Assembly (NCBI GenBank): GCA_018060305.1 | Contig: JAGOWF010000001.1 | Location: forward strand, 1 to 31,321 | DNA from: Pyrinomonadaceae bacterium | GTDB taxonomy: Bacteria; Acidobacteriota; Blastocatellia; Pyrinomonadales; Pyrinomonadaceae | Direction: 5' to 3' | Length of the DNA: 31,321 nucleotides | Part shown: positions 917-30,991 of the stretch, in pieces | How positions within the stretch are numbered: position 1 is the stretch's first letter | Layout: each line of letters begins with the position of its first letter | Program-made: the position numbers and the translations under genes | The notes under the pieces: generated by a model | What the model was told of the DNA's origin: nothing | Database searches by the model: none | The model's input: only the letters and a program-made list of their open reading frames with translations

Positions 917-2290
917 ATGAAAAAGCTTTCTATCGCATTGCTCGTGATGATCTTCGCCGCCTCCTTTGCCGCCGCGCAGTCTGACGCTGAGCTTCGCGCG
1001 GTGGTCGCAAAGGACAAAACGAGCCGCGACGCCGCCGGCAAACTCCTCTCGCTGACCGCCGCGGAGCACGCCGAGCGAGGCGAGGTCTATTTTGAGAATC
1101 GCCACTTCCCCGAGGCGCGTGAGCATTTTCAGATCGTGCTCGACAAATACGCCGACGACCCTTTGTTTGCCCGCGCGATGTTTGTCGTCGGCCGCTCTTT
1201 TATGTGGGAGCGGCAATATGCCAACGCCATTGTCTGGCTCGATCGTGTTTCGCGCGAGTTTCCGGCGACAAAGGACGGCCGCGAAGCTCTCGCGTTCAAG
1301 GGCGCGTGTCATGTTCGGCTCAATAAACACGCCGACGCCGCAAAGATATACGAGCAATACACCGTAATGTATCCGACGGGCGAGCGCCTCGATTCGGCGT
1401 ATCTCAATACCATCGACGCTCTTCGCGAGGCGGGCAATTATGATGGCGCAAACACTTGGGTCGATAGGGCGCAGCAGCGTTTTGCAGGCACGCCAATCGA
1501 GACAAACGCCCTTCACGCCCGCGTGCGAATGGAGATCTATCGCCAGCGTTGGCCCGAGGCCGTTGCGGCCGCCGATGTGATGCTCGCGCACGCCGCGTTT
1601 GGCGGCTCGATGTCCACAATGGACGAGGTCAAATACCTAAAAGCCTTTGCGCTCGAAAAAAGCGGGCGCCGCGCCGACGCGATGGCTGTTTACGCGTCGA
1701 TCCCTGAGAATTCGGCCTCGTATTACGCCGGGCTTGCTGCCGATAAGCTCGCCGTGCCTGACAAGCGCGTCCGGCGCATCGTCCAGATATCGCCGAGCGT
1801 GCTCGCGGCGTTTCCCGCTGCCTATCGCGACGACGTTTTGCGTTACGCAAAGAAAAAGCACGTCGATCCGCGATTTGTTTTGGCGATAATGAAGCAGGAA
1901 AGTGCCTTTCGCCCGGGTGCAAAAAGTCCGTCTGCGGCTCGCGGGCTGATGCAGTTCGTCTTTGACACCGCCATAAAGTACAAGAATAAGGCCGGTTTCC
2001 CCGCGCTGCAGCCCGACGACCTTTATCTGCCCGCCGTCAGCATCGCGCTCGGCGTGGAATACATCGCCGCGCTCCGCGATCAGTTTGGCGGCCTTAACGA
2101 GGCCATCGCCGCGAGCTACAACGGCGGCGAAGATAACGCCGCGCGCTGGCTAAATCGCTCAAATCCCAAAGAGCCCGCCATCTTCGCCTCCGAAGTCGGC
2201 TTCGCACAGACAAAGGATTACGTCCAAAAGGTGCTGGCCAACTACCGAATCTACCGCGACCTATACGATGACAACCTCGTGCGGCGATAG
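917..2290 (+). CDS. Secreted lytic transglycosylase (SLT domain) with N-terminal TPR/BamD-like repeats
   Basis: Signal peptide MKKLSIALLVMIFAASFAAA from ATG 917 (track ORF starts 857); TPR-like helices; SLT motifs AIMKQESAF (catalytic Glu), SAARGLMQ, ASYNGG, TKDYVQKV. Confidence 0.9.
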   Translation: MKKLSIALLVMIFAASFAAAQSDAELRAVVAKDKTSRDAAGKLLSLTAAEHAERGEVYFENRHFPEAREHFQIVLDKYADDPLFARAMFVVGRSFMWERQYANAIVWLDRVSREFPATKDGREALAFKGACHVRLNKHADAAKIYEQYTVMYPTGERLDSAYLNTIDALREAGNYDGANTWVDRAQQRFAGTPIETNALHARVRMEIYRQRWPEAVAAADVMLAHAAFGGSMSTMDEVKYLKAFALEKSGRRADAMAVYASIPENSASYYAGLAADKLAVPDKRVRRIVQISPSVLAAFPAAYRDDVLRYAKKKHVDPRFVLAIMKQESAFRPGAKSPSAARGLMQFVFDTAIKYKNKAGFPALQPDDLYLPAVSIALGVEYIAALRDQFGGLNEAIAASYNGGEDNAARWLNRSNPKEPAIFASEVGFAQTKDYVQKVLANYRIYRDLYDDNLVRR

Positions 2291-2347
2291 ATCGTTTATT
2301 GCGGCTTGTCGCCTCTCATTTCGGCCAGGCTTGCCTGACCCCTGCCT

Positions 2348-2494
2348 ATGAATTGCCACGCACTTTAGAGCGTGGAGAGCGATCCTGTTAGCTTTCGCGG
2401 CTTTAGCCGAATGCGGGGCGGGCAAAAGAGGTTGGGCGAAAGCCCCAAATCTCCATTTGACCGCGACCACTAGCTAAAGCTAGTGGCAATTCAT
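2348..2494. repeat. REP-doublet (REPIN-like) element, family 1
   Basis: Terminal inverted repeat ATGAATTGCCAC (2348)/GTGGCAATTCAT (2483-2494). Hairpins CCACGCAC-TTTA-GAGCGTGG (degenerate) and CCACTAGC-TAAA-GCTAGTGG (2467-2486). Inner pair CGGC-TTTA-GCCG / GGGC-GAAA-GCCC. Confidence 0.75.
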
Positions 2495-2515
2495 ATAAAT
2501 CTGGTGGCAATTCAT

Positions 2516-2598
2516 GTCCCTGAAAGGGACAAATGTAATAGCGTCGGGAGAATCCCGACGAATCGCGGCCGCGGGCGTTTCGCTCCCTGAAAGGGAGC
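2516..2598. repeat. Cluster of short REP-like hairpins
   Basis: GTCCCT-GAA-AGGGAC (2516-2530), ATAGC-GTCGGG-AGAAT-CCCGAC (2543-2559), GCTCCCT-GAA-AGGGAGC (2582-2598); same motif order as 14144-14187. Confidence 0.7.
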
Positions 2599-2625
2599 AA
2601 TGATCGCGTCGATAAGTGGTCCCAA

Positions 2626-2746
2626 ATTGCCGTTGCCTTTAGGCAACGGCTGCCGGCTCAAGAGCGGATCGGGCTTTAGCCCACGCTTTTGTTGGGCTGA
2701 AGCCCATTGTTGAGTGATAGGACCGTTGCCTAAAGGCAACGGCAAT
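2626..2746. repeat. 121-bp REP-doublet (REPIN-like) element, family 2, copy A
   Basis: Perfect 24-bp terminal inverted repeats ATTGCCGTTGCCTTTAGGCAACGG / CCGTTGCCTAAAGGCAACGGCAAT, each itself a hairpin. Inner pair GGGC-TTTA-GCCC / GGGC-TGAA-GCCC. Followed by the 11-bp spacer TGAAGAGACCG. Confidence 0.92.
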
Positions 2747-2757
2747 TGAAGAGACCG

Positions 2758-2878
2758 ATTGCCGTTGCCTTTAGGCAACGGCTGCCGGCTCAAGAGCGGA
2801 TCGGGCTTTAGCCCACGCTTTTGTTGGGCTGAAGCCCATTGTTGAGTGATAGGACCGTTGCCTAAAGGCAACGGCAAT
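2758..2878. repeat. 121-bp REPIN-like element, family 2, copy B (identical to A)
   Basis: Base-by-base identical to 2626-2746; period 132 bp. Confidence 0.92.
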
Positions 2879-2929
2879 GTGAGTTTTCGCCGTCGAAAAA
2901 TGAGTTTTGCGTCCGCAAGTGTAAGTTTT

Positions 2930-3223
2930 CACTGGTGATAAATGACTTTTCACTGGTGATAAATGACTTTTCACTGGTGATAAATGACTTTTCACTGGTG
3001 ATAAATGAAATTCCACTGGTGATAAATGACTTTTCACTGGTGATAAATGAAATTCCACTGGTGATAAATAAAATTCCACTGGTGATAAATGAAATTCCAC
3101 TGGTGATAAATGACTTTTCACTGGTGATAAATGAAATTCCACTGGTGATAAATGCCTTTTCACTGGTGATAAATGAAATTCCACTGGTGATAAATGGCTT
3201 TTCACTGGTGATAAATGACTTTT
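2930..3223. repeat. Tandem array of 14 x 21 bp, CACTGGTGATAAAT-(GACTTTT/GAAATTC), ~33% GC
   Basis: Units start at 2930 and every 21 bp to 3203. First 14 nt invariant; last 7 nt alternate between two main variants. Degenerate in-register units upstream (GAGTTTT at 2881 and 2902, AAGTTTT at 2923). Confidence 0.97.
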
Positions 3224-3314
3224 TGGCAAACATTTCCCTTGCAGTCGGCCCGAAATGGGCGTAAAATCCCTCCGAAACTACGAAATACTACTTTTTTACA
3301 AGGAGAAAACTACT

Positions 3315-4016
3315 ATGGCCGGTATCAGTTGGATGCCTACGACGTGGGCGGGAAAGGCGGCGATGTTTGCGAATGTCGGTGCGAAGATCGGGAACTACGC
3401 GGCGGCGCTCGGGCTGACGCCGGCCGAGGTTTTGGCGGCGGTTGGGATGTGCGATCAGTTTGCGGCGCAGTATTCGTTTATCACGCAGACACAGGCGTAT
3501 TCGCAGGCCGCGACGCAGTGGCGCGATCTGGGAATGTCGGGCGAACCTGAGGGCGACCCGCTCGGCGCGCCGCCCGCCGCGCCCGTGTATAATTCGCCCG
3601 GCGGCGAGATCATCGGCCTGCTCGACGCATTTCGCGCCGAGCGCGACCGCTGGGTCGCGGCCGCCGGTTACACTCAGGCCATCGGCGAAGACCTGATGAT
3701 CGTCGCCACATCGGGTCAGGGATTCAATCCCGGCGACGTCACGCCGACCATCGCCGTTTCTGCCGCGCAGGCCGATTATTTGTTTGGAATAACGGTATCA
3801 AACCGCGCCGATTCCGATATGTGGACGGTGCAGACAAAGCAAAAGGGCGGCAGTTGGCAAAATGTCGGCAGCTTTACCGGCAAGACCGCCGATATCACCG
3901 TCTCGCCCCTCGCCGACGGCGACCCCGAACAGGTCGAGGTCCGCGTTCAATTGCGAAAAAATAACGAGAACTACGGCAACGTCTCGCAAACCGCCACCGT
4001 TACCGTAAATCCGTAA
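3315..4016 (+). CDS. Uncharacterised 233-aa protein: Ala-rich helical N-domain, Pro linker, GYTxAIGEDL motif, beta-sandwich (FN3/Ig-like) C-domain
   Basis: AAGGAG RBS before ATG 3315; open to TAA 4016; no signal peptide. Fold assignments are inferred from residue patterns only. Confidence 0.85.
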   Translation: MAGISWMPTTWAGKAAMFANVGAKIGNYAAALGLTPAEVLAAVGMCDQFAAQYSFITQTQAYSQAATQWRDLGMSGEPEGDPLGAPPAAPVYNSPGGEIIGLLDAFRAERDRWVAAAGYTQAIGEDLMIVATSGQGFNPGDVTPTIAVSAAQADYLFGITVSNRADSDMWTVQTKQKGGSWQNVGSFTGKTADITVSPLADGDPEQVEVRVQLRKNNENYGNVSQTATVTVNP

Positions 4017-4138
4017 ATTGCCGTTGCCTTTTGGCAACGGTTGCAGGCTGACGAGCGGATCGGGCTTTAGCCCACGCTTTTGTTGGGCTGGAAGCCCACT
4101 GTCGAGCCATAGGACCGTTGCCTAAAGGCAACGGCAAT
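4017..4138. repeat. REPIN-like element, family 2, copy C (~92% identical to A/B)
   Basis: Begins at the base after the TAA of 3315-4016. 9 substitutions plus 1 inserted base vs copy A by hand alignment. Followed by CGAAGAGGCCG, a homologue of the A-B spacer. Confidence 0.9.
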
Positions 4139-4163
4139 CGAAGAGGCCGCGCGCAGGCGCGGA

Positions 4164-4364
4164 CTTTTGCCGCGAAGCGGCTGAAGAAGGTAGCCAGACG
4201 TGAAACGTCTGGGAAGATCGCAAACCTTCGCGTCTCGCCCTGAAAGGGCGAAACGGCCCATCGCCGCTCACATTCGCCCGCACCTTCAGTGCGGCGGCGG
4301 TTGTGACGCATTTCCAGACGTTTCACGTCTGGCGACCGTCTTTAGCGGCTCCGCCGCGCAAAGG
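4164..4364. repeat. Composite GTAG-type REP doublet, family 3
   Basis: GTAG-CCAGACGT-GAA-ACGTCTGG (4190-4212) and inverted copy (4314-4336). Inner hairpins CGCCCT-GAA-AGGGCG and CCGCAC-CTTCA-GTGCGG; outer GCGG-rich flanks. Homologous to 14262-14459. Confidence 0.85.
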
Positions 4365-4394
4365 CACGGCTTGGCGGATCGCCCGAATATTTCC

Positions 4395-5627
4395 TTAATT
4401 CTCCCAATCGCCGTGGCCTTCGCGGGTGATGTGATAGCCGGCGGCCTTTAGATGTGAGTGAATGGCGAGGGCGTGGTCGTTATCGCGGACTTCGAGAAGC
4501 ATTTCGATGCCGACATGACCGAGCGGCGCGAGCCACATTGCCCGACGGTGAAAAACCTCTATCACATTCGCACCGGCCGCCGCGACCGCGTCGAGCAGGC
4601 CTGCGAGATTGCCCGGACGATCAACGACAAGCACGCTGAACATTACATAACGCCCGTGACGCACGAGGACGTGTTCGAGAACGCGCGTGAGCAGATTGGC
4701 GTCGATATTCCCGCCGGCAAGCACGACGCAGATACTCTCGCCGGGCGCGATGGCAATTTTACCTGAAAGCACGGCCGCGAGCCCCGCCGCGCCCGCGCCC
4801 TCGACGACGAGACGGTTATTCTGCACGCTGTGAAAGATCGCTTCGGCGATCTCTTCGTCATCGACCTCGACGATCTCGTCAACGTATTCGCGAATGATCG
4901 GAAGGGTGAGTTCGCCCGGCGTCTTTACCGCAATGCCGTCGGCGATCGTCGGCTTGGTCGCGGGGATCACCGCGCGGCCCTCGACGAGCGAAGGCTTGAC
5001 CCACGAAACGGCCGCCGATTGAACGCCGATGATGCGCACCGAGGGCTTTAGCGACTTTGCCGCGATCGCAATGCCCGACATCACGCCGCCGCCGCCGATC
5101 GGCACGATGATAGTCGTGACATCGGGCAGAGATTCGACGATCTCCATGCCGATAGTGCCCTGCCCCGCGATGATCCGCTCGTCGTCGTAAGCGTGGACGT
5201 AGGTCAGGCCGTTCTCTTTTTGAAGTTCCTTAGAGTAAGCGACCGCCTCGTCAAACGTCGCGCCCTTTAGGATAACCTCCGCGCCATAACCGCGCGTCGC
5301 ATTCACCTTTGTCAGCGGTGCAAACTCAGGCAAAACAATGGTCGCGGCAATGCCGACATAGCGCGCCGCCAGCGCCACGCCCTGCGCGTGGTTCCCGGCC
5401 GAGGCAGCGATCACGCCGCGCGACTTCTCGTCGTCAGCGAGTTGAGAGATCTTGTTGTAAGCGCCTCGGATCTTGAACGAGCCACTCTTTTGCAGGCTCT
5501 CGGCCTTGAGATGGACGCCCGCGCCGGTCTCGCGCGACAAACGCGCGTCCGCGATCACCGGCGTTTGATTGATAACGCCCGCAATCCGCCTGCGAGCGGA
5601 CTTGATATCATCGAGTGTGACAGCCAT
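4395..5627 (-). CDS. ilvA: Threonine ammonia-lyase (PLP-dependent) with C-terminal ACT domain
   Basis: KAESLQKSGSFKIRGA (PLP Lys), ASAGNHAQGVA, PIGGGGVMSG, ACT domain DRPGNL. Confidence 0.95.
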   Translation of the reverse strand: MAVTLDDIKSARRRIAGVINQTPVIADARLSRETGAGVHLKAESLQKSGSFKIRGAYNKISQLADDEKSRGVIAASAGNHAQGVALAARYVGIAATIVLPEFAPLTKVNATRGYGAEVILKGATFDEAVAYSKELQKENGLTYVHAYDDERIIAGQGTIGMEIVESLPDVTTIIVPIGGGGVMSGIAIAAKSLKPSVRIIGVQSAAVSWVKPSLVEGRAVIPATKPTIADGIAVKTPGELTLPIIREYVDEIVEVDDEEIAEAIFHSVQNNRLVVEGAGAAGLAAVLSGKIAIAPGESICVVLAGGNIDANLLTRVLEHVLVRHGRYVMFSVLVVDRPGNLAGLLDAVAAAGANVIEVFHRRAMWLAPLGHVGIEMLLEVRDNDHALAIHSHLKAAGYHITREGHGDWEN

Positions 5628-5699: not shown

Positions 5700-6713
5700 A
5701 TGCCCGAAATTTTTGGTGTTGGTGCCATTTTTCTACTATTTCTCGGTATCGCGCTGCTCGTCGTCGCGTGGAAAACGATAAAGATCGTCCCGCAATCCAG
5801 CGTCCTGCTCATCGAGCGGCTCGGGCGCTTTCACCGTGTTGCCAACAGCGGGCTGAATATAATCGTGCCGTTCTTCGAGGCACCACGCGCCGTTTACTGG
5901 ACAAACCAGCGGCCGGGCGTGACGTTTGTCGATCTTCGCGAACAGTTCATCGATCTGCCGCCGCAGAGCGTTATCTCTCGCGACAACGTGATGATGGGCG
6001 TCGATTCCGTCGTCTATTGGCAGATCACCGACCCGACAAAGGCCACATACGAGGTCAACGACCTCGTCGGCTCGATCGTGCAGTTGACATTTACCGGGAT
6101 GCGCAGCGTCATCGGCAAGCTCGACCTCGACCACACGCTTTCAAGCCGCGATCAAATCAACAACGAGCTGCGAATGATCCTTGACGAGGCCACAGACAAA
6201 TGGGGCGTCAAGGTAACACGCGTCGATATCAAGAACATCACTCCGCCCGAGGACGTTCGGATCACGATGGAAAAGCAAATGACCGCCGAACGCAATCGCC
6301 GCGCCCTCATTCTCCAGGCCGAAGGCGACAAACAGGCCGCCATAACCCGCGCCGAAGGCGAAAAGCAGGCCAACGTCACCCGCGCCGAAGGCGAAAAGGC
6401 ATCTGCCATCCTCGAAGCCGAGGGCGCCGCTCAGGCTCGCCTCACCGCCGCCGGCGCCGAGGCACAAACCATCGCCCAGATCGCCACCGCCATCGGCGAT
6501 CCCGGCCAAACCGCTCAGTATCTGATCACGGCGAGATATGTCGATTCAATGCGCGATATGGCCCGAACGCAAAACAGCAAGGTTATCTTTATGCCCACCG
6601 AGACGTCCGCCGTTCTGGCGAGCGTCGGGGCGTTTAAGGAAGTATTCAGCGAGACCGGCAAGGACGCGGCAGAATTGCCAAAACCGCGTAGCCCGCGTGA
6701 ATTGGACAAATAG
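5700..6713 (+). CDS. SPFH/Band-7 stomatin-like (QmcA-type) membrane protein
   Basis: N-terminal TM; IERLGRF; VDLRE; ISRDNV; LDHTLSSRDQIN; WGVKVTRVDIKNITPP; coiled-coil AEGEKQA repeats. Confidence 0.93.
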   Translation: MPEIFGVGAIFLLFLGIALLVVAWKTIKIVPQSSVLLIERLGRFHRVANSGLNIIVPFFEAPRAVYWTNQRPGVTFVDLREQFIDLPPQSVISRDNVMMGVDSVVYWQITDPTKATYEVNDLVGSIVQLTFTGMRSVIGKLDLDHTLSSRDQINNELRMILDEATDKWGVKVTRVDIKNITPPEDVRITMEKQMTAERNRRALILQAEGDKQAAITRAEGEKQANVTRAEGEKASAILEAEGAAQARLTAAGAEAQTIAQIATAIGDPGQTAQYLITARYVDSMRDMARTQNSKVIFMPTETSAVLASVGAFKEVFSETGKDAAELPKPRSPRELDK

Positions 6714-25774: not shown

Positions 25775-28700
25775 ATGAGGTTTAGATTGAAAGCGAACCT
25801 ATTAGCTCACGGTAAGCCCGTTAAAGACTTCCGAGGAGGGCGCATCGCAAACGGTTTGATCCAAAAACTCCCGGCCAGATTAGGCATTGCGGTATTTCTG
25901 CTGCTCACGGCCATGTCCGCCTACTGGCTTCTGCCCTCGTCCGCTGCGACGGGCAGGTCAAGCGAGCCGCCCGAGGACGGACCGGGCTGTGTCGTAAATC
26001 CAACGCCAACATATACAACGTATACTTTCAGCAACGAGGCACCCATCGTCCCGGCGGATCGTGTGAGCAACGATCCGGGCACGGATCCAGGCCTCCCGTC
26101 TTTATATCCATCGGTGATCCAAGTCGGCGGGGCTGCCCCGGAATCCTGCGTGCTGACCGAGGTCAAGGTCACTTTTGCTGTCACCTCGCAAAGGCCTGAC
26201 GATCTGGACATGCTTCTTATCGACCATCGAGGCAGCAGATCTATCCTGATCTCAGACGCCGGAGGCAGTAACCAGTTGACCGACGTCGTCTACGCGATAT
26301 CGCTTAATCGTCCAACCTTTCCAGATGAGACCGCCCCGCCGTCGGGAACCTATTCTCCCGGCCAGTATCCGGGACTCGTGGGGCCAGAGCCGGACGGATT
26401 CGATAATTTTCCGGGCGTGAACGGCCTTGCGAGCTATCCTTCTGACTGGTGGGCGCTTTTTTCGCACTCCGGACTGGCCGGGGCATGGAAACTATACGTC
26501 GTCGATGACGAGACTGGCCATGCCAGCGGCCTGCCAACCGGCTGGACCTTGCAATTCGTCTTCATGTGCACTACTCCGCCAATGATGTGCACACCGACGC
26601 CGACGCCGACGCCGTCTTGCCAGCCGGGAGTCCTGGATCCGACGTTTGGCGGTGACGGCCTGATGACAACGTCTATAATGGACGGCTTTAGTGTCGCAAC
26701 ATCGATGGCGATCCAGCCGGATGGGCGTATCGTCGCGGCTGGTTACGCATGTGCCGAACCTGGCGGAAACTGCCAATTCTATGGAGCCCGACTTAAGTAT
26801 GCGCTTACGCGCTATTTAGAGAACGGCGCTCTTGATGGTTCCTTTGGGACAGGCGGGATCGTGACGACAGAGTTCTATGGCATTGACCGTGCGAATGCCC
26901 TCGCACTCCAGCCTGATGGGAAGGTCGTCGTCGCCGGGCGCAGCATAGCACCAGGCACGCCCGCAGCGTTCGCACTCGCTAGATATAACGCTGACGGCTC
27001 GCTCGATGCTTCATTCGGCACAGGCGGAAAGGTCACGACCACATTCCCAGACAGTATCGGAGACGGCGCATATTCGGTGGCGATTCAGCCGGATGGCCGC
27101 ATCGTAGCCGGCGGCGGAACTAGGGACGCAGGTTCTTTGGATGCCTTTGCACTTGCCAGATATAACGGCGACGGAACCCTTGACCCTTCCTTTGGAACCG
27201 GCGGCCTGGTCAAACTGAGCATCGATGGCCGAGAGAGCGAGGCGCGAGCGATAGCCTTGCAGCCCGACGGCCGCATTGTCGCGGTCGGTTCTGTTATTCG
27301 CTCTCCGGGCCCAGACGGCGCCTTGTTTGCCGCAGCCAGATACAACTCCGACGGCACGCTGGACACTTCATTTGGGACCGGCGGCACGGTAACAACTGAG
27401 ATCGGGCCTTTGGCGGATGCAGCATTGGCCGTTGCGATGCAGACTGACGGAAAGATCCTAGCGGCATGGATCGCCTATGTCGGAACCACCCCTCACTCAG
27501 ACTTCGCTCTCGTGAGGTATAACCAGGACGGAACGCTCGACACGACGTTTGGCACCGGCGGTAAGGTAACAACCGCGATCGCTCCCGAAACCGGGCTCGA
27601 TTCCCTGGAGGCGATCGCGATTCAGGATGACGGACGCATCGTCGCTGCAGGTGATTCCGCATCTGATATTTCTTTCGCCCGATATAACCCCGATGGCACG
27701 CTTGACACGTCGCTGAACGGCACGGGACTGATCACCACAAACCTCGAACCCAACTTCTCAGGCGCCACCTCGGTCGCGATCCAGGAGGACGGCAAAATTG
27801 TTGCCGCCGGCCGCGGGTTTGGTGGCACGAACTACGATGTGGCGGTCATGCGCTATGGCGCGCCGTGCGGGACGCCCACACCCACGCCGACACCCACGCC
27901 AACCCCGACCCCGACACAGAGTTTGGGGACGTATGCGGATGTAGTCGTCCCGTTGGGTGGAAACGCGAGCCTGGTCCCGTCGGCACCGCCGACCGGGGTG
28001 ACAAATCTCGCGGTAACGACGTCAACTAGCTTCAACGGCGAACTCACCGCTGACCCTACGACAGGAGTTGTCCGGATAACGAACGCTCATCCGACAAACA
28101 TAACACCATCGTCATACGCGGTCGAGGTTCGCGGCTTCGGTCCGGGCGGTACGGTCTCACAGACCTTTCAGTTGACGGTTACGAGCGGAAACGCGTGCGG
28201 CGGCGTCAGCGGATTCACTGCACCCGCAGTGCCCGAGGTTACGGTCGGAGCTTTTCCCCACGACGCAGCTGTCGCTGACTTTAACGGCGACGGCATTCAG
28301 GACATTGCCGTCGTAAACAAGAATTCGACTAACGTCTCGATACGGCTAGGCAACGGCACCGGCGGTTTTGTTTCGCCTTCCGTGCCAGAGGTCGCGGTCA
28401 GTCAAAATCCGCAGCGTATCGCAATAGGTGACTTCAATGACGATGGCTACAGCGACATGGCGGTCACCAGTTTTGACCTGATAAGAGTCTCGATAAGGCT
28501 GGGTGACGGAGCCGGAGGATTTACGCTGCCTGCAATTTCTGAGGTCTTGGTTCCGTTTGCCCCGCGGGCAATTGAGGTTGCCGATGTGAACGGCGACCGG
28601 CATGACGATCTGCTGGTCGGAATGGGCGGGTCAACCGTCTCGGTCCGTCTGGGTGACGGGGCCGGGGGATTCTCAGCCCCATCGACCCCGACGGTAACAG

Positions 28701-30991
28701 TAGACGGCCGGCCGCATTATATCGTCGCAGGAGATTTTAACAGCGATGGAAACGCTGATTTTGCGACGGCAAACGACAACACGGACTCGATTTCCATACG
28801 ACTGGGCGACGGTCTTGGCGGTTTTTTGGTTCCGGGCGGCACTATTCTAGCCGTTGGGTCTCCGAGCGAAGTTGCGATCGGTGACTTTAATGAGGACGGT
28901 ATTCAGGATCTGTTATCGGGCGGTCAAAATTCTATCGGTGAGGCCGCGATATCGGTCCTGCTCGGACAAGGTACCGGCGGATTTATCCCTGCGCCATCGC
29001 CTATGGTTCCTCTGCCCTCGGGACCGGGTGGCGTTCGGATAACTGACCATAATAACGACGGCCATCAAGACTTCTTAACTGTGAATCCTAATGTCAACAA
29101 TGTATCTTTGCGAACCGGAAACGGATCGGCAGGATTCATCCAACCCGTGAACGCTCAGATCGCGGTCGGCTCAATTCCGCTACGAGTCGTAATAGCAGAT
29201 TTCAACGGGGACGGGCGGCAGGACTTTGCAACCGCGAACTTCGCCTCCGGGAATGCATCCATCCGCATGGGGTTCTGTAACATTTCAACGCCAACGCCAA
29301 CTCCGACGCCTACGCCGACTCCAACGTCCACGCCTACGCCACCACCCACGCCGACGCCACCGCCAACCGGTCCCTGCAATTACGTCAACGGCGGACTAAA
29401 TCCCGTGACCATATCCCTCAGCGGTGTACCCGCCCCTTCCGGGTCATTCTGGAGCGAGGTGCAGAATAACGCGGGGAACCTCACCGAGTCCAATACAACG
29501 TTAGGCTTTGAGACCAAACAGGGCCAATTTGTATACGATTCTGACCGGCTGGCGGACGATTTCGTTACCCAGGTACCGTGTACGATCGACTCGGTCGTGG
29601 TTCACGGCTATTCAGGTAGCGGTACCACGAGTCCGTTTACCGCGCACACGCTTCAGATTTGGAATGGCCGTCCCGGCGACCTGGAAAGCACGATCGTGTT
29701 TGGTGACACTACAACTAACCGGCAGGCATCGAGTACCGACACGGGCACCTTCCGTATCTCTAACACCGTCGTGCCGCCGCTGGTCACGCCGACGGCCACC
29801 CGAAGGGTCTGGAGAAATACCATTGCGGTCGCCACGACGCTGCCGCCTGGACACTATTGGATCGACTGGACCGCGACCGTCAATAATAATCCGGCTACGT
29901 CGAACTTCGCGCCGACGAGAACCATGGCAGGGCAGAGAAGCGATTGGCGGGATAACGCGATACAAAGGGGCGAGCTTGCCAACTTTCAGTATTCTGACGT
30001 CATCGATTACGGAAAGCCGTCATCGGCCGGCAATGTACCACAGGATTTTCCATTTGAGGTCGTCGGAACGCCCGCTGGCGGCCCGACGCCGACGCCGAGT
30101 CCGACCCCAACGCCGCCTGCGTATCGCGCACGGGCCGACTTTGACGGTGACGGAGTTTCGGACGTATCCGTCTATCGGCCGACCGCATTTGGTTCCAATC
30201 TGAGCGCGTGGTATGTGAATGGCTCTACGGCCGGGTTCTCAGGGGCGCAGTTTGGGCTTGCCACCGACGTACCGGTCCCCGGAGACTACGACGGCGATAC
30301 GAGGGCCGACCTGGCGGTCGCACGCTTTACGACACATCCCCAGATGCCGGATTTCTTTATTCTGCGGAGTGCAACGAACACAATGATTTACGCGAATTGG
30401 GGACAACCGGACGACGTCCCGAGCCCCGGCGACTATGACGGTGACGGCTTGACGGACGTCGCCATCACCCGCGATTGGTCGACATACATTATCAAGAGTA
30501 CCGGTGGCACCATTCAAAGAGATTATGGTCGGCAATCCTCGACTCTGGGCTTCAGGCCGGTGCCGATCCCGCTGGACTTCGACGGGAACGGCCGAACAAA
30601 TATTGTATTTTTCAACGAGGGAATGTGGAGGATCATCGACGACGACCTGTTAGGCGGCCAGACCACGATCGAATGGGGCCTGCCGACGGATATCCGCGTG
30701 CCGGCAGATTACGACGGCGACGGTTCCGACGACATCGCTGTATTCAGGCCCAGCAACGGCGTCTGGTACATACTTAAGAGCTCAGACAGGCAGCCGATGA
30801 TAATCCAGTGGGGCCAGGACGGCGATGTACCTGTTCCGGGCGATTACGATGGGGACCAAGTTTACGATGTTGCGGTCTATCGTTTCGGCATTTGGTACAT
30901 CAACGGCTCGACTGCGGGGCCAAGAGCCGAGGGATTTGGCTTAGATTTTGATATTCCGGTTCCGAGGTCTTACCGGCCGCATTTCCCGTGA
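25775..30991 (+). CDS. Large mosaic surface protein: P-domain-like, delta-60 repeats, Ig-like, FG-GAP/VCBS, unknown beta-sandwich, C-terminal FG-GAP-like domain, joined by PT linkers
   Basis: Repeats LDxSFGTGG.VTT / QPDG(K/R)IV.AG / LARYN.DG (26620-27860); DFNGDG..D repeats (28200-29275); DFDGDG..D.SVYRP / PVPGDYDGD repeats (30125-30985); four PT tracts. Start uncertain (25703/25754/25775). Confidence 0.9.
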   Translation: MRFRLKANLLAHGKPVKDFRGGRIANGLIQKLPARLGIAVFLLLTAMSAYWLLPSSAATGRSSEPPEDGPGCVVNPTPTYTTYTFSNEAPIVPADRVSNDPGTDPGLPSLYPSVIQVGGAAPESCVLTEVKVTFAVTSQRPDDLDMLLIDHRGSRSILISDAGGSNQLTDVVYAISLNRPTFPDETAPPSGTYSPGQYPGLVGPEPDGFDNFPGVNGLASYPSDWWALFSHSGLAGAWKLYVVDDETGHASGLPTGWTLQFVFMCTTPPMMCTPTPTPTPSCQPGVLDPTFGGDGLMTTSIMDGFSVATSMAIQPDGRIVAAGYACAEPGGNCQFYGARLKYALTRYLENGALDGSFGTGGIVTTEFYGIDRANALALQPDGKVVVAGRSIAPGTPAAFALARYNADGSLDASFGTGGKVTTTFPDSIGDGAYSVAIQPDGRIVAGGGTRDAGSLDAFALARYNGDGTLDPSFGTGGLVKLSIDGRESEARAIALQPDGRIVAVGSVIRSPGPDGALFAAARYNSDGTLDTSFGTGGTVTTEIGPLADAALAVAMQTDGKILAAWIAYVGTTPHSDFALVRYNQDGTLDTTFGTGGKVTTAIAPETGLDSLEAIAIQDDGRIVAAGDSASDISFARYNPDGTLDTSLNGTGLITTNLEPNFSGATSVAIQEDGKIVAAGRGFGGTNYDVAVMRYGAPCGTPTPTPTPTPTPTPTQSLGTYADVVVPLGGNASLVPSAPPTGVTNLAVTTSTSFNGELTADPTTGVVRITNAHPTNITPSSYAVEVRGFGPGGTVSQTFQLTVTSGNACGGVSGFTAPAVPEVTVGAFPHDAAVADFNGDGIQDIAVVNKNSTNVSIRLGNGTGGFVSPSVPEVAVSQNPQRIAIGDFNDDGYSDMAVTSFDLIRVSIRLGDGAGGFTLPAISEVLVPFAPRAIEVADVNGDRHDDLLVGMGGSTVSVRLGDGAGGFSAPSTPTVTVDGRPHYIVAGDFNSDGNADFATANDNTDSISIRLGDGLGGFLVPGGTILAVGSPSEVAIGDFNEDGIQDLLSGGQNSIGEAAISVLLGQGTGGFIPAPSPMVPLPSGPGGVRITDHNNDGHQDFLTVNPNVNNVSLRTGNGSAGFIQPVNAQIAVGSIPLRVVIADFNGDGRQDFATANFASGNASIRMGFCNISTPTPTPTPTPTPTSTPTPPPTPTPPPTGPCNYVNGGLNPVTISLSGVPAPSGSFWSEVQNNAGNLTESNTTLGFETKQGQFVYDSDRLADDFVTQVPCTIDSVVVHGYSGSGTTSPFTAHTLQIWNGRPGDLESTIVFGDTTTNRQASSTDTGTFRISNTVVPPLVTPTATRRVWRNTIAVATTLPPGHYWIDWTATVNNNPATSNFAPTRTMAGQRSDWRDNAIQRGELANFQYSDVIDYGKPSSAGNVPQDFPFEVVGTPAGGPTPTPSPTPTPPAYRARADFDGDGVSDVSVYRPTAFGSNLSAWYVNGSTAGFSGAQFGLATDVPVPGDYDGDTRADLAVARFTTHPQMPDFFILRSATNTMIYANWGQPDDVPSPGDYDGDGLTDVAITRDWSTYIIKSTGGTIQRDYGRQSSTLGFRPVPIPLDFDGNGRTNIVFFNEGMWRIIDDDLLGGQTTIEWGLPTDIRVPADYDGDGSDDIAVFRPSNGVWYILKSSDRQPMIIQWGQDGDVPVPGDYDGDQVYDVAVYRFGIWYINGSTAGPRAEGFGLDFDIPVPRSYRPHFP

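What the first reader, a model, noticed from the sequence alone, without database searches (positions are those of the whole stretch)
2626..4149. REPIN-bounded cargo cassette (21-bp array plus orphan gene) with base-precise junctions; candidate REP-mediated gene-cassette system
Seen: the segment 2879-4016 lies between direct copies of one 121-bp nested-hairpin element. Copy B ends at 2878 and the array lead-in starts at 2879; the gene's TAA (4014-4016) abuts copy C at 4017. Copy A is followed by TGAAGAGACCG and copy C by its homologue CGAAGAGGCCG, but copy B has the cassette in that position. Established: REP/REPIN elements are processed by HUH-family RAYT (TnpA-REP) enzymes acting on ssDNA hairpins. 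Inference: this layout is what integration of a [cassette + REPIN] unit into a resident REPIN would leave, i.e. an integron-like cassette using REPINs instead of attC, with the enzyme supplied in trans (none in the window). It sits between the convergent housekeeping genes slt and ilvA.
Basis: partly seen in the sequence, partly recalled or inferred. Interest (0 to 1): 0.82.

Follow-up and report, generated by a model that had tools for sequence, protein, structure and literature searches.

The report
Repeat-array gene module among REPINs
The hairpin repeats (REPINs) around this gene are bystanders; the real unit is a strictly 21-base repeat array, a promoter and a gene for an unknown 233-residue protein, and that package recurs at many different places in soil and sludge Acidobacteria.

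Summary
Three copies of a 121-bp hairpin element sit at 2626, 2758 and 4017, with base-exact junctions to a 21-bp array and to a 233-aa gene. The spacer lies between slt and ilvA.

The integron-like REPIN cassette reading does not hold.
- The gene is not an orphan: a profile search finds 1130 clusters at 50% identity.
- 30 of 37 non-redundant homologue loci, in different genomic contexts, carry a 21/42/63-bp phased array upstream. Downstream controls gave 0 of 34 and random windows 0 of 400.
- Only 3 of about 35 readable loci have any REPIN near the stop codon.
- The motif after copy C is the gene's own terminator, split from the stop codon by REPIN insertion. A REPIN-less joint exists in metagenome contigs.
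- B and C belong to different REPIN subtypes, and neither is chimeric.

Three relatives have an empty slt-ilvA spacer (20-50 bp), so this spacer is an insertion hotspot.

The genome is REP-rich: 15 Y1_Tnp hits, at least 8 RAYT genes with their own REPs, and 29 exact copies of this REP.

The array belongs to the known but unexplained bacterial repeats of constant 20-21 nt size and variable sequence. This scan had already noted the same array-gene package on other DNA. The functions of array and protein remain unknown.

The parts
917..2290 (+). slt-like lytic transglycosylase (TPR + SLT domain); the ORF is open from 857 and the likely start is the ATG at 917
   Evidence: Translation. Pfam SLT E 3.6e-25 plus TPR families.
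2347..2495 (.). A second REPIN-like doublet of another REP family (ATTGCCACGC.. / ..CTAGTGGCAAT), followed by an extra REP at 2496-2515
   Evidence: Inverted repeat I11 and direct repeat D3. The CCACTAGC hairpin flanks the RAYT on contig C257. An 88% copy lies at C18:8984-9128.
2510..2757 (.). Duplicated block: small GTCCC/GCTCCC-TGAAA hairpins, REPIN A, and 11 nt of a relic terminator
   Evidence: 98% identical to C18:8624-8871. In C18 the 11-mer continues as a GC hairpin.
2626..2746 (+). REPIN copy A (type I)
2758..2878 (+). REPIN copy B (type I), 100% identical to A. It forms a 132-bp tandem with A and abuts the array in phase with the array's units.
   Evidence: Junction GGCAAT|GTGAG compared with the C18 array unit GCAAAT GTGAG.
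2879..3235 (+). 21-bp phased tandem array: two lead-in units of the C18/C21 type, 14 units with a CACTGGTG core in two alternating variants, and one degenerate unit that reaches the -35 box
   Evidence: TRF. Stacked units. Lag-21 identity 0.93.
3239..3267 (+). Inferred sigma-70-type promoter: TTGCAG, 17 nt, TAAAAT
   Evidence: Nucleotide homology with the 92%-identical homologue L014 begins exactly here. The same box survives in the C18/C21 remnants. The simple consensus scan does not call it.
3315..4016 (+). Gene for a 233-aa acidic protein with two domains: an N-terminal helical domain and a C-terminal FN3-like sandwich. It belongs to a large uncharacterised family.
   Evidence: dN/dS is 0.12 against L014.
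4017..4138 (+). REPIN copy C (type II), inserted between the stop codon and the terminator
   Evidence: The same junction occurs at C18:9502 and C21:259. A joint 4014->4141 without the REPIN is present in runs X1 and X4.
4139..4172 (+). The gene's own terminator-like GC hairpin with a T run (GAAGAGGCCGCG...CGCGGACTTTTG)
   Evidence: The same element directly follows REPIN-free homologues (C228; L052 and L077). The simple scan does not call it.
4150..4376 (.). A third REPIN-like doublet: 66-nt inverted arms carrying the GTAG-CCAGACGTG REP
   Evidence: Inverted repeat I1. The REP flanks the RAYTs on C253 and C99. Copies lie on C228, C201, C266 and other contigs. Sub-threshold Acido-Lenti-1 match.
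4395..5627 (-). ilvA-like threonine dehydratase (PALP)
   Evidence: Pfam PALP E 2.5e-81.

Best explanation
The 2.1-kb slt-ilvA spacer is an intergenic hotspot that holds two unrelated kinds of element.

(1) A gene module. It is one copy of a multicopy, patchily distributed module of Blastocatellia (Acidobacteriota). The module consists of a strictly 21-bp-phased, fast-evolving tandem array, a sigma-70-type promoter that the array abuts, a gene for an acidic ~230-aa helical + FN3 protein, and a GC-hairpin terminator.

(2) REP/REPIN elements. At least three families are present, and their RAYT (Y1 HUH transposase) genes lie elsewhere in the genome. These elements have inserted and duplicated around and inside the module.
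- REPIN C went in between the stop codon and the terminator, before the module was copied to at least two further loci that have since decayed.
- REPIN A with its relic terminator is left over from another module copy.
- REPIN B is a 132-bp tandem copy of A, joined to the array at a microhomology (GGCAAT / GCAAAT).

The REPINs are therefore bystanders, or at most portable stretches of homology. They are not the cassette's recombination sites.

Shown: the module recurs without REPINs, relatives have empty sites, and the two REPIN subtypes are distinct.

Inferred: the array works in cis as DNA, not as RNA and not as the binding site of its own protein. It would be a platform phased at two helical turns, giving coherent bending or same-face binding of an unidentified protein, that modulates the adjacent promoter. 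Its sequence turns over by satellite-like amplification of variant units.
For: Module recurrence.
- 20 close homologues and 1130 profile hits.
- 0-9 copies per genome, found in 23 of 41 congeners at scattered loci.
- 30 of 37 loci have a 21/42/63-bp array upstream, against 0 of 34 downstream controls and 0 of 400 random windows.
- Distant homologues L129 and L130 also start inside 21-bp units that abut the -35 box.

Gene and array evolve separately.
- Window and L014 align only from the -35 box to the stop codon (84.7% nt, dN/dS 0.12). Their arrays are unrelated.
- An array of the L014 unit type sits without a gene on contig C201 of this genome.
- The window's array starts with two C18-type units and then 14 copies of a new unit, which indicates amplification.

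The REPINs are incidental.
- Downstream regions of homologues are plain terminators or heptamer hairpins. REPINs occur near the stop at only 3 loci.
- Subtype alignment.
- REPIN-less joint 4014->4141.
- Terminator homology.
- 29 exact REP copies here against 0-4 in each of 40 congeners.
- 15 Y1_Tnp hits, with 8 or more RAYTs each flanked by its own REP.

Hotspot. Empty spacers in G010, G007 and G002, and unrelated inserts in other congeners.

Protein. pI 4.4, family median 5.1, which makes it an unlikely DNA binder.
Against: - Within this genome the gene 3' end, the type II REPIN and the terminator occur together at three loci (C300, C18, C21). Here a REPIN did travel with the module, so REPIN-assisted movement by homologous recombination is not excluded.
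- The exact abutment of B to the array is explained only by a microhomology argument.
- No clean occupied-versus-empty pair at base resolution was obtained. Relatives are 55-73% identical in protein, and the G014/G048 comparison gave another variable island.
- Nothing shows that the array is functional. Orphan arrays exist (C201, and the G016 spacer), and 7 of 37 loci lack a clear array.
- The promoter is inferred from conservation, and a simple scan misses it.
- The A-B tandem and the number of array units rest on a short-read MAG assembly.
Confidence: 0.7

Rival explanations
1. First reader's model. A RAYT acting in trans integrates [cassette + REPIN] units into resident REPINs. This would be an integron-like system with REPINs in the role of attC.
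For: Base-exact REPIN junctions on both sides. Many RAYT genes in the genome. A RAYT flanked by this REP in congener G032. Empty site in relatives. The same stop-codon/REPIN junction at three loci.
Against: - Only 3 of about 35 readable homologue loci have any REPIN nearby.
- The flank of C is the module's own terminator, and homology with C21 runs across the outer edge of C.
- B and C are different, non-chimeric subtypes.
- A REPIN-less joint exists.
- The unit has its own promoter.
- No other cargo was found between pairs of this REPIN; C18:8861-9501 holds REPs plus a decayed copy of the same module.
- The cognate RAYT is not in the assembled 82% of the genome.
Confidence: 0.06
2. REPINs as portable homology. 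Within this genome the module, with the REPIN that had landed in it, was copied or moved between REP-rich spacers. The mechanism would be ordinary homologous or microhomology-mediated recombination between dispersed REPIN copies, with no dedicated enzyme.
For: - A 248-bp block including REPIN A is 98% identical between C300 and C18. The second REPIN family appears in swapped order at the two loci.
- Gene end, type II REPIN and terminator are shared by three loci.
- B joins the array at a GCAA(A)T microhomology.
- The joint 2908->3933 shows that the deleted paralogue is present in the same sample at similar depth.
Against: No reciprocal products or empty donor sites were seen. C18 and C21 could be strain variants of one locus, because they overlap at about 95% identity. 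This model explains movement within this genome only, not the spread of the module across genomes that lack these REPINs.
Confidence: 0.2
3. Assembly artefact. The contig is a chimera joined through 121-bp repeats and a collapsed or expanded array, so the 'REPIN-bounded' layout does not exist on one molecule.
For: The MAG has 321 contigs, and other contigs end inside this REPIN (C18) or inside an array (C21, L129, L130). Logan contigs do not bridge A-B, B-array or the array interior. Word depth in the array is 2-3 times that of the flanks.
Against: Unique segments left of, inside and right of the repeats have equal depth in run X1: 17.2, 16.7 and 16.5. The gene-to-C and C-to-terminator junctions are reproduced at C21 and C18. 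The repeat is shorter than the k-mers of 127 that are common in metagenome assemblers (own knowledge; the assembler used here is unknown).
Confidence: 0.08
4. The array has no function. It would be a selfish or neutral minisatellite that arises next to this gene family's promoter by slippage, and its 21-bp period would be a mutational by-product.
For: Unit sequences turn over completely between 85%-identical genes. Orphan and inverted arrays exist (C201, G016). Dyad symmetry is only modestly enriched: 4.7 against 3.5 for the longest perfect arm.
Against: The period stays at exactly 21, 42 or 63 over up to 17-25 units even when identity is only about 70%. The position relative to the promoter is kept across homologues down to about 25% identity. 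Constant size with variable sequence is seen in many bacteria (PMC8161180). These points argue for selection on phase.
Confidence: 0.25

Closest known systems
REP/REPIN elements with RAYT (TnpA-REP, Y1 HUH) enzymes, as in Pseudomonas and Enterobacteria (own knowledge: Nunvar 2010; Bertels and Rainey 2011)
   Same: Copies A, B and C are doublets of an inverted 24-nt palindrome that fold into one long hairpin. The REP is extragenic, dispersed (29 copies) and expanded in this lineage only. RAYT genes flanked by their own REPs are present.
   Different: The central 73 nt carry a further palindrome. The cognate RAYT was found only in a congener. Several REP families with covarying stems coexist. 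Nothing shows that they mobilise cargo.
Integron gene cassettes (attC x attI, IntI)
   Same: Folded single-strand hairpin sites next to a discrete gene unit, and an empty site in relatives.
   Different: There is no integrase or attI. The hairpin site does not travel with the gene across genomes. The unit has its own promoter and terminator. The flanking 'target' motif is the gene's own terminator.
Bacterial tandem repeats of constant size (20-21 or 52 nt) and variable sequence (Subirana and Messeguer, Int J Mol Sci 2021, PMC8161180)
   Same: Strict 21-nt period, non-coding, several unrelated unit sequences within one genome, function unknown.
   Different: Here the arrays are tied to one protein family and abut its promoter. 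The paper does not report this as far as I read it: 'promoter' occurs 0 times in its text.
Plasmid iteron and centromere arrays next to their binding-protein gene (F sopC 12 x 43 bp, R1 parC)
   Same: Phased direct repeats, often with internal dyads and a 42-bp super-period, directly beside a small gene.
   Different: The arrays are chromosomal, multicopy and scattered. No ParA or Rep partner is nearby. The adjacent protein is acidic with an FN3 domain. Nearly identical proteins have unrelated arrays.

Membership tests
REPIN (REP doublet) | Two inverted copies of a short palindromic REP that fold into one long hairpin | tested here: met
   Arms of 24-25 nt with 100% complementarity. Folding energy -45 kcal/mol, z = -8.7.
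REPIN (REP doublet) | The REP is dispersed in many extragenic copies in the genome | tested here: met
   29 exact copies on 18 contigs, with 0 for the reversed-pattern control. 0-4 copies in each of 40 congeners.
REPIN (REP doublet) | A cognate RAYT (Y1_Tnp) gene flanked by the same REP | tested here: inconclusive
   Found in congener G032: Y1_Tnp E 4.9e-26, with REPs on both sides. Not found in the 82%-complete MAG, where the best RAYT is 49% identical and is flanked by other REPs.
Integron-type gene cassette | The recombination site travels with each cassette | tested here: not met
   Only the window, L024 and L052 have a REPIN near the stop codon. The other readable loci (about 35 in all) have plain terminators or heptamer hairpins.
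Integron-type gene cassette | The cassette boundary coincides with the edge of the recombination site | tested here: not met
   Homology between C300 and C21 continues through C into the terminator. The flanking 11-mer is the terminator's 5' half. A REPIN-less joint exists.
Integron-type gene cassette | A site-specific integrase and a primary attachment site at the platform | not tested
   No ORF of that kind lies in the 2.1-kb spacer. The whole genome was not screened for IntI.
Constant-size 20-21-nt tandem repeats (PMC8161180) | Constant 20-21-nt period with different unit sequences among arrays of one genome | tested here: met
   Own genome: arrays on C300, C18/C21, C104 (two types) and C201, all with period 21 and different units. 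30 of 37 homologue loci have period 21/42/63.
Iteron / partition-centromere array with cognate binding protein | The adjacent gene product binds the repeats, and a Rep or ParA partner is present | tested here: inconclusive
   No Rep or ParA among the neighbours. The protein is acidic, pI 4.4. Proteins 92% identical have unrelated arrays.

The most novel reading that the evidence does not exclude
The 21-bp array would be a cis-acting architectural promoter element, inherited together with one large uncharacterised protein family (helical + FN3, about 230 aa). Its sequence would be free to turn over by satellite-like amplification, while its period is held at two helical turns. If so, this module would be the first gene-linked, experimentally tractable case of the unexplained bacterial repeats of constant 20-21 nt size and variable sequence. 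A second, less likely reading is that REPINs which land inside the module help to copy it within a genome.
Probability: 0.35. Interest if true: 0.6.

Novelty: new variant of a known kind. Interest (0 to 1): 0.4.

Why it matters
The proposed REPIN-based cassette system would have been a new mechanism of gene capture, and the evidence here argues against it. What remains is smaller but real. A protein family of at least 1100 sequence clusters, with no annotation, is almost always preceded by a strictly 21-bp-phased repeat array whose sequence is hypervariable and which touches the promoter. Bacterial tandem repeats of fixed 20-21 nt size and free sequence have been described as enigmatic (PMC8161180). 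A consistent gene partner and promoter position make the question testable with reporter fusions, pull-downs and array-length series. The locus also shows how REPINs can imitate cassette boundaries by inserting between a stop codon and its terminator.

Tried and rejected
- Function of the protein. Pfam gave only a sub-threshold DUF11 match. PHROGs, PADLOC and NCBIfam gave nothing. Foldseek against PDB and the viral library matched only the FN3 domain.
- Clean empty site for another copy (G014 against its closest relative G048). The corresponding place holds a different 2.4-kb insert, so it is uninformative.
- Horizontal-transfer test by comparing L014's neighbours with this genome. Orthologues were not assembled or were too distant, so the test is inconclusive.
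- A conserved 'leader' at the far end of arrays. It is shared only by C18 and C201.
- Structured-RNA reading. Rfam gave only chance miRNA-like hits on the hairpins and a sub-threshold Acido-Lenti-1 hit on another REP.
- Transcription evidence. The metatranscriptome contigs cover only repeated REP parts, so they are uninformative.
- A universal dyad in array units. The enrichment is only modest.
- Literature search for 21-bp arrays upstream of promoters in Acidobacteria. Nothing relevant was found.
Full report
**Observation**

- The repeat finder and TRF give two identical 121-bp copies at 2626-2746 and 2758-2878. Together they form a 132-bp tandem unit present 1.9 times. A third copy lies at 4017-4138, 92% identical with one indel.
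- Each copy is a doublet of an inverted 24-nt palindrome around a further palindrome. As single-stranded DNA it folds at -45 and -43 kcal/mol, z = -8.7.
- The first array unit begins at 2879. The TAA at 4014-4016 touches copy C.
- The array has two odd lead-in units, 14 units with a CACTGGTG core in two alternating variants, and one degenerate unit that runs up to a TTGCAG box.
- The gene is 3315-4016, 233 aa.
- The neighbours are an SLT/TPR transglycosylase and a PALP threonine-dehydratase-like gene, arranged convergently.
- The window is the longest contig of a MAG: 2.56 Mb, 321 contigs, 82% complete, 55.7% G+C.

**The gene is not an orphan**

- A word-indexed search found 20 relatives at 36-92% identity.
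- A profile of these found 1130 clusters at 50% identity with E <= 1e-3, and 431 with E <= 1e-10. Nearly all are 225-240 aa long.
- Named genomes that carry the family are Chloracidobacterium, Pyrinomonadaceae and other Blastocatellia MAGs.
- Of 41 genomes of the window's genus that were sampled, 23 have it. Copy number is 0-9 per genome, at scattered loci.
- The AlphaFold model has pLDDT 85. It shows an N-terminal helical domain and a C-terminal FN3-like sandwich. Foldseek matches only the FN3 part.
- No family library names the protein.
- The protein is acidic, pI 4.4, and the family median is 5.1.
- It is under purifying selection: dN/dS is 0.12 against its 92%-identical relative.

**The array travels with the gene; the REPIN does not**

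I compared the 900 bp upstream of 37 non-redundant homologue loci.
- 30 loci have their strongest self-similarity at a lag of 21, 42 or 63 bp, with identity 0.5-0.95.
- The same test gave 0 of 34 for regions downstream of the same genes, and 0 of 400 for random windows of this genome.
- Arrays usually end 15-230 bp before the start codon, directly upstream of a promoter-like box.
- Very distant homologues behave the same way: contigs L129 and L130 begin inside 21-bp units that abut a TTGATT or TTGCAT box.
- Unit sequences differ completely from locus to locus.

In contrast, the sequence after the stop codon is a plain GC hairpin with a T run, or a heptamer-repeat hairpin, in almost all loci. 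A REPIN is nearby only in the window, L024 and L052.

**Gene and array evolve as separable parts**

- The closest relative, L014, lies between ftsY and a DUF4013 gene, not between slt and ilvA.
- It aligns with the window only from the -35 box (3237) to the stop codon, at 84.7% nucleotide identity. Upstream of the shared CCTTGCAG there is no similarity.
- An array of L014's unit type is present in this genome on contig C201. There it has no gene; the array is followed by a relic -35 box, a terminator and a REPIN-like element.
- Contigs C18 and C21 carry arrays of a third unit type. These are followed by the promoter, a deletion, the last 81 nt of the gene and the REPIN.
- The window's array starts with two units of that C18 type, so the CACTGGTG units look like a recent amplification.

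**What the REPIN flanks really are**

An alignment of the six copies separates two subtypes.
- Type I comprises A, B and C18:8740.
- Type II comprises C, C18:9502 and C21:259.
- The diagnostic differences are spread over the whole element. Neither B nor C is a recombinant.

All type II copies follow the same stop codon, and the same sequence follows them.
- That sequence, GAAGAGGCCGCG...CGCGG with a T run, is the family's terminator. It directly follows REPIN-free relatives (C228, L052, L077).
- Homology between C300 and C21 runs from gene position 3933 through C to 4217.
- Copy C is therefore an insertion between stop codon and terminator, made before the module was copied within this genome.
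- Logan contigs of two metagenomes contain a joint from 4014 to 4141 that lacks exactly these 126 bp.

The 11-mer after A is the start of the same kind of terminator. It is complete at C18 and cut off in the window by B. B meets the array at GGCAAT|GTGAG, where the array unit reads GCAAAT GTGAG. I read this as a microhomology junction; that step is inference.

**A genome full of REPs**

- The genome has 15 Y1_Tnp matches.
- At least eight of these RAYT genes are flanked by their own tetramer-plus-hairpin REP. Two of those REP families also sit in this spacer, at 2347-2515 and 4150-4376.
- The CCGTTGCC REP occurs 29 times here, against 0-4 times in each of 40 congeners.
- Its cognate RAYT was not assembled here. 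Congener G032 has a Y1_Tnp gene flanked by exactly this REP.

**The spacer is a hotspot**

slt and ilvA are adjacent in most congeners that have both genes on one contig.
- The spacer is 20-50 bp in G010, G007 and G002.
- It is about 295 bp of heptamer repeats in G013.
- It is 0.7-1.1 kb in G014, G015, G016 and G009. The three spacers I read (G014, G015, G016) hold unrelated small genes on the other strand. None of the four holds a homologue of the 233-aa gene.
- It is about 5.7 kb in G001.
- None of these spacers holds a homologue of the 233-aa gene.
- G016 has an orphan 11-unit 21-bp array there.

**Mechanism**

Shown:
- The array-promoter-gene-terminator module recurs without REPINs.
- It occupies a hotspot that is empty in relatives.
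- REPINs of two subtypes have inserted around it.

Inferred:
- The array acts in cis as DNA. The conserved promoter lies downstream of it, and the protein is acidic.
- Any repeat with a period of two helical turns adds up whatever bend each unit has, and puts any site on one face of the helix. That would explain a fixed size with free sequence.
- I therefore favour an architectural or protein-docking role at the promoter. The neutral minisatellite reading is the main rival.

The literature describes bacterial repeats of constant 20-21 nt size and variable sequence as unexplained (PMC8161180).

**Earlier notes of this scan**

Earlier notes had already reported the same array family in Pyrinomonadaceae, including 'upstream of the promoter of an unknown 229-residue protein'. 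My tally agrees with them. It was made on my own loci after I had seen the pattern myself.

**Limits**

- The A-B tandem and the number of array units are not verified independently.
- In the probable source run, the unique segments have equal depth (17.2, 16.7, 16.5). Contigs there break at the repeats, and array words are 2-3 times deeper than the flanks.
- No base-resolution pair of empty and occupied sites was obtained.
- There is no transcription evidence.

Noticed in passing
window 4168-4212 (-): A sub-threshold Rfam match to Acido-Lenti-1 (25 bits; gathering score 37) falls on the GTAG-CCAGACGTGAAACGTCTGG hairpin. That hairpin is the REP flanking the RAYT genes on contigs C253 and C99. 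The Acido-Lenti-1 motif may therefore be a REP rather than an sRNA.
   Followed up: partly
L050 (G016:C2) about 2020-2230, in the slt-ilvA spacer of a congener: An orphan array of about 11 units of 21 bp (GGCAGACTTCCAAACGCCTTC) sits in the same spacer. It ends at the stop codon of an unrelated small lipoprotein-like gene, and no family member is nearby.
   Followed up: partly
G000 contig C104:2096-2460: Two consecutive 21-bp arrays (12 and about 7 units) share constant flanks (GGCTT ... GAATTAC) and differ in a 7-nt core. A run of N follows, so the downstream gene is unknown.
   Followed up: no
G000 contigs C66:3377-3443, C253:8935-8988, C266:3558-3630: Three units spaced at 21 bp, each containing TTGTCGATACA, lie upstream of three unrelated genes. 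Distant homologues L126-L128 and L068 have GTATC-N7-GATAC-like dyads upstream. This looks like a regulon operator used in 21-bp phase.
   Followed up: no
G000 contig C228:209-245 and 475-500; L043 (G013 spacer); L026, L035, L060, L079 downstream regions: Runs of 7-bp repeats (for example GTGACAA, GGTAAAT) and their inverted partners form long hairpins after genes. An earlier scan note (e1-4097583) described the same for Pyrinomonadaceae.
   Followed up: no
L129:1-45, L130:1-65, G000 contig C21:1-142: Metagenome contigs that carry family members often begin inside the 21-bp array, about 100-140 nt before the start codon. Short-read assemblies therefore break at these arrays and under-report them.
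   Followed up: partly
window 2347-2602: Several REP families in one spacer share loop and tail grammar (TAAAG or TGAAAG loops, CAAT or AAAT tails) while their stems covary. Each stem type matches a different RAYT locus of the genome.
   Followed up: partly
window 6318-6398; 27871-27917; 29286-29367: Other tandem repeats reported by TRF: 33 bp x 2.5, and 6-24-bp ACGCC-rich repeats that are probably coding low-complexity sequence.
   Followed up: no
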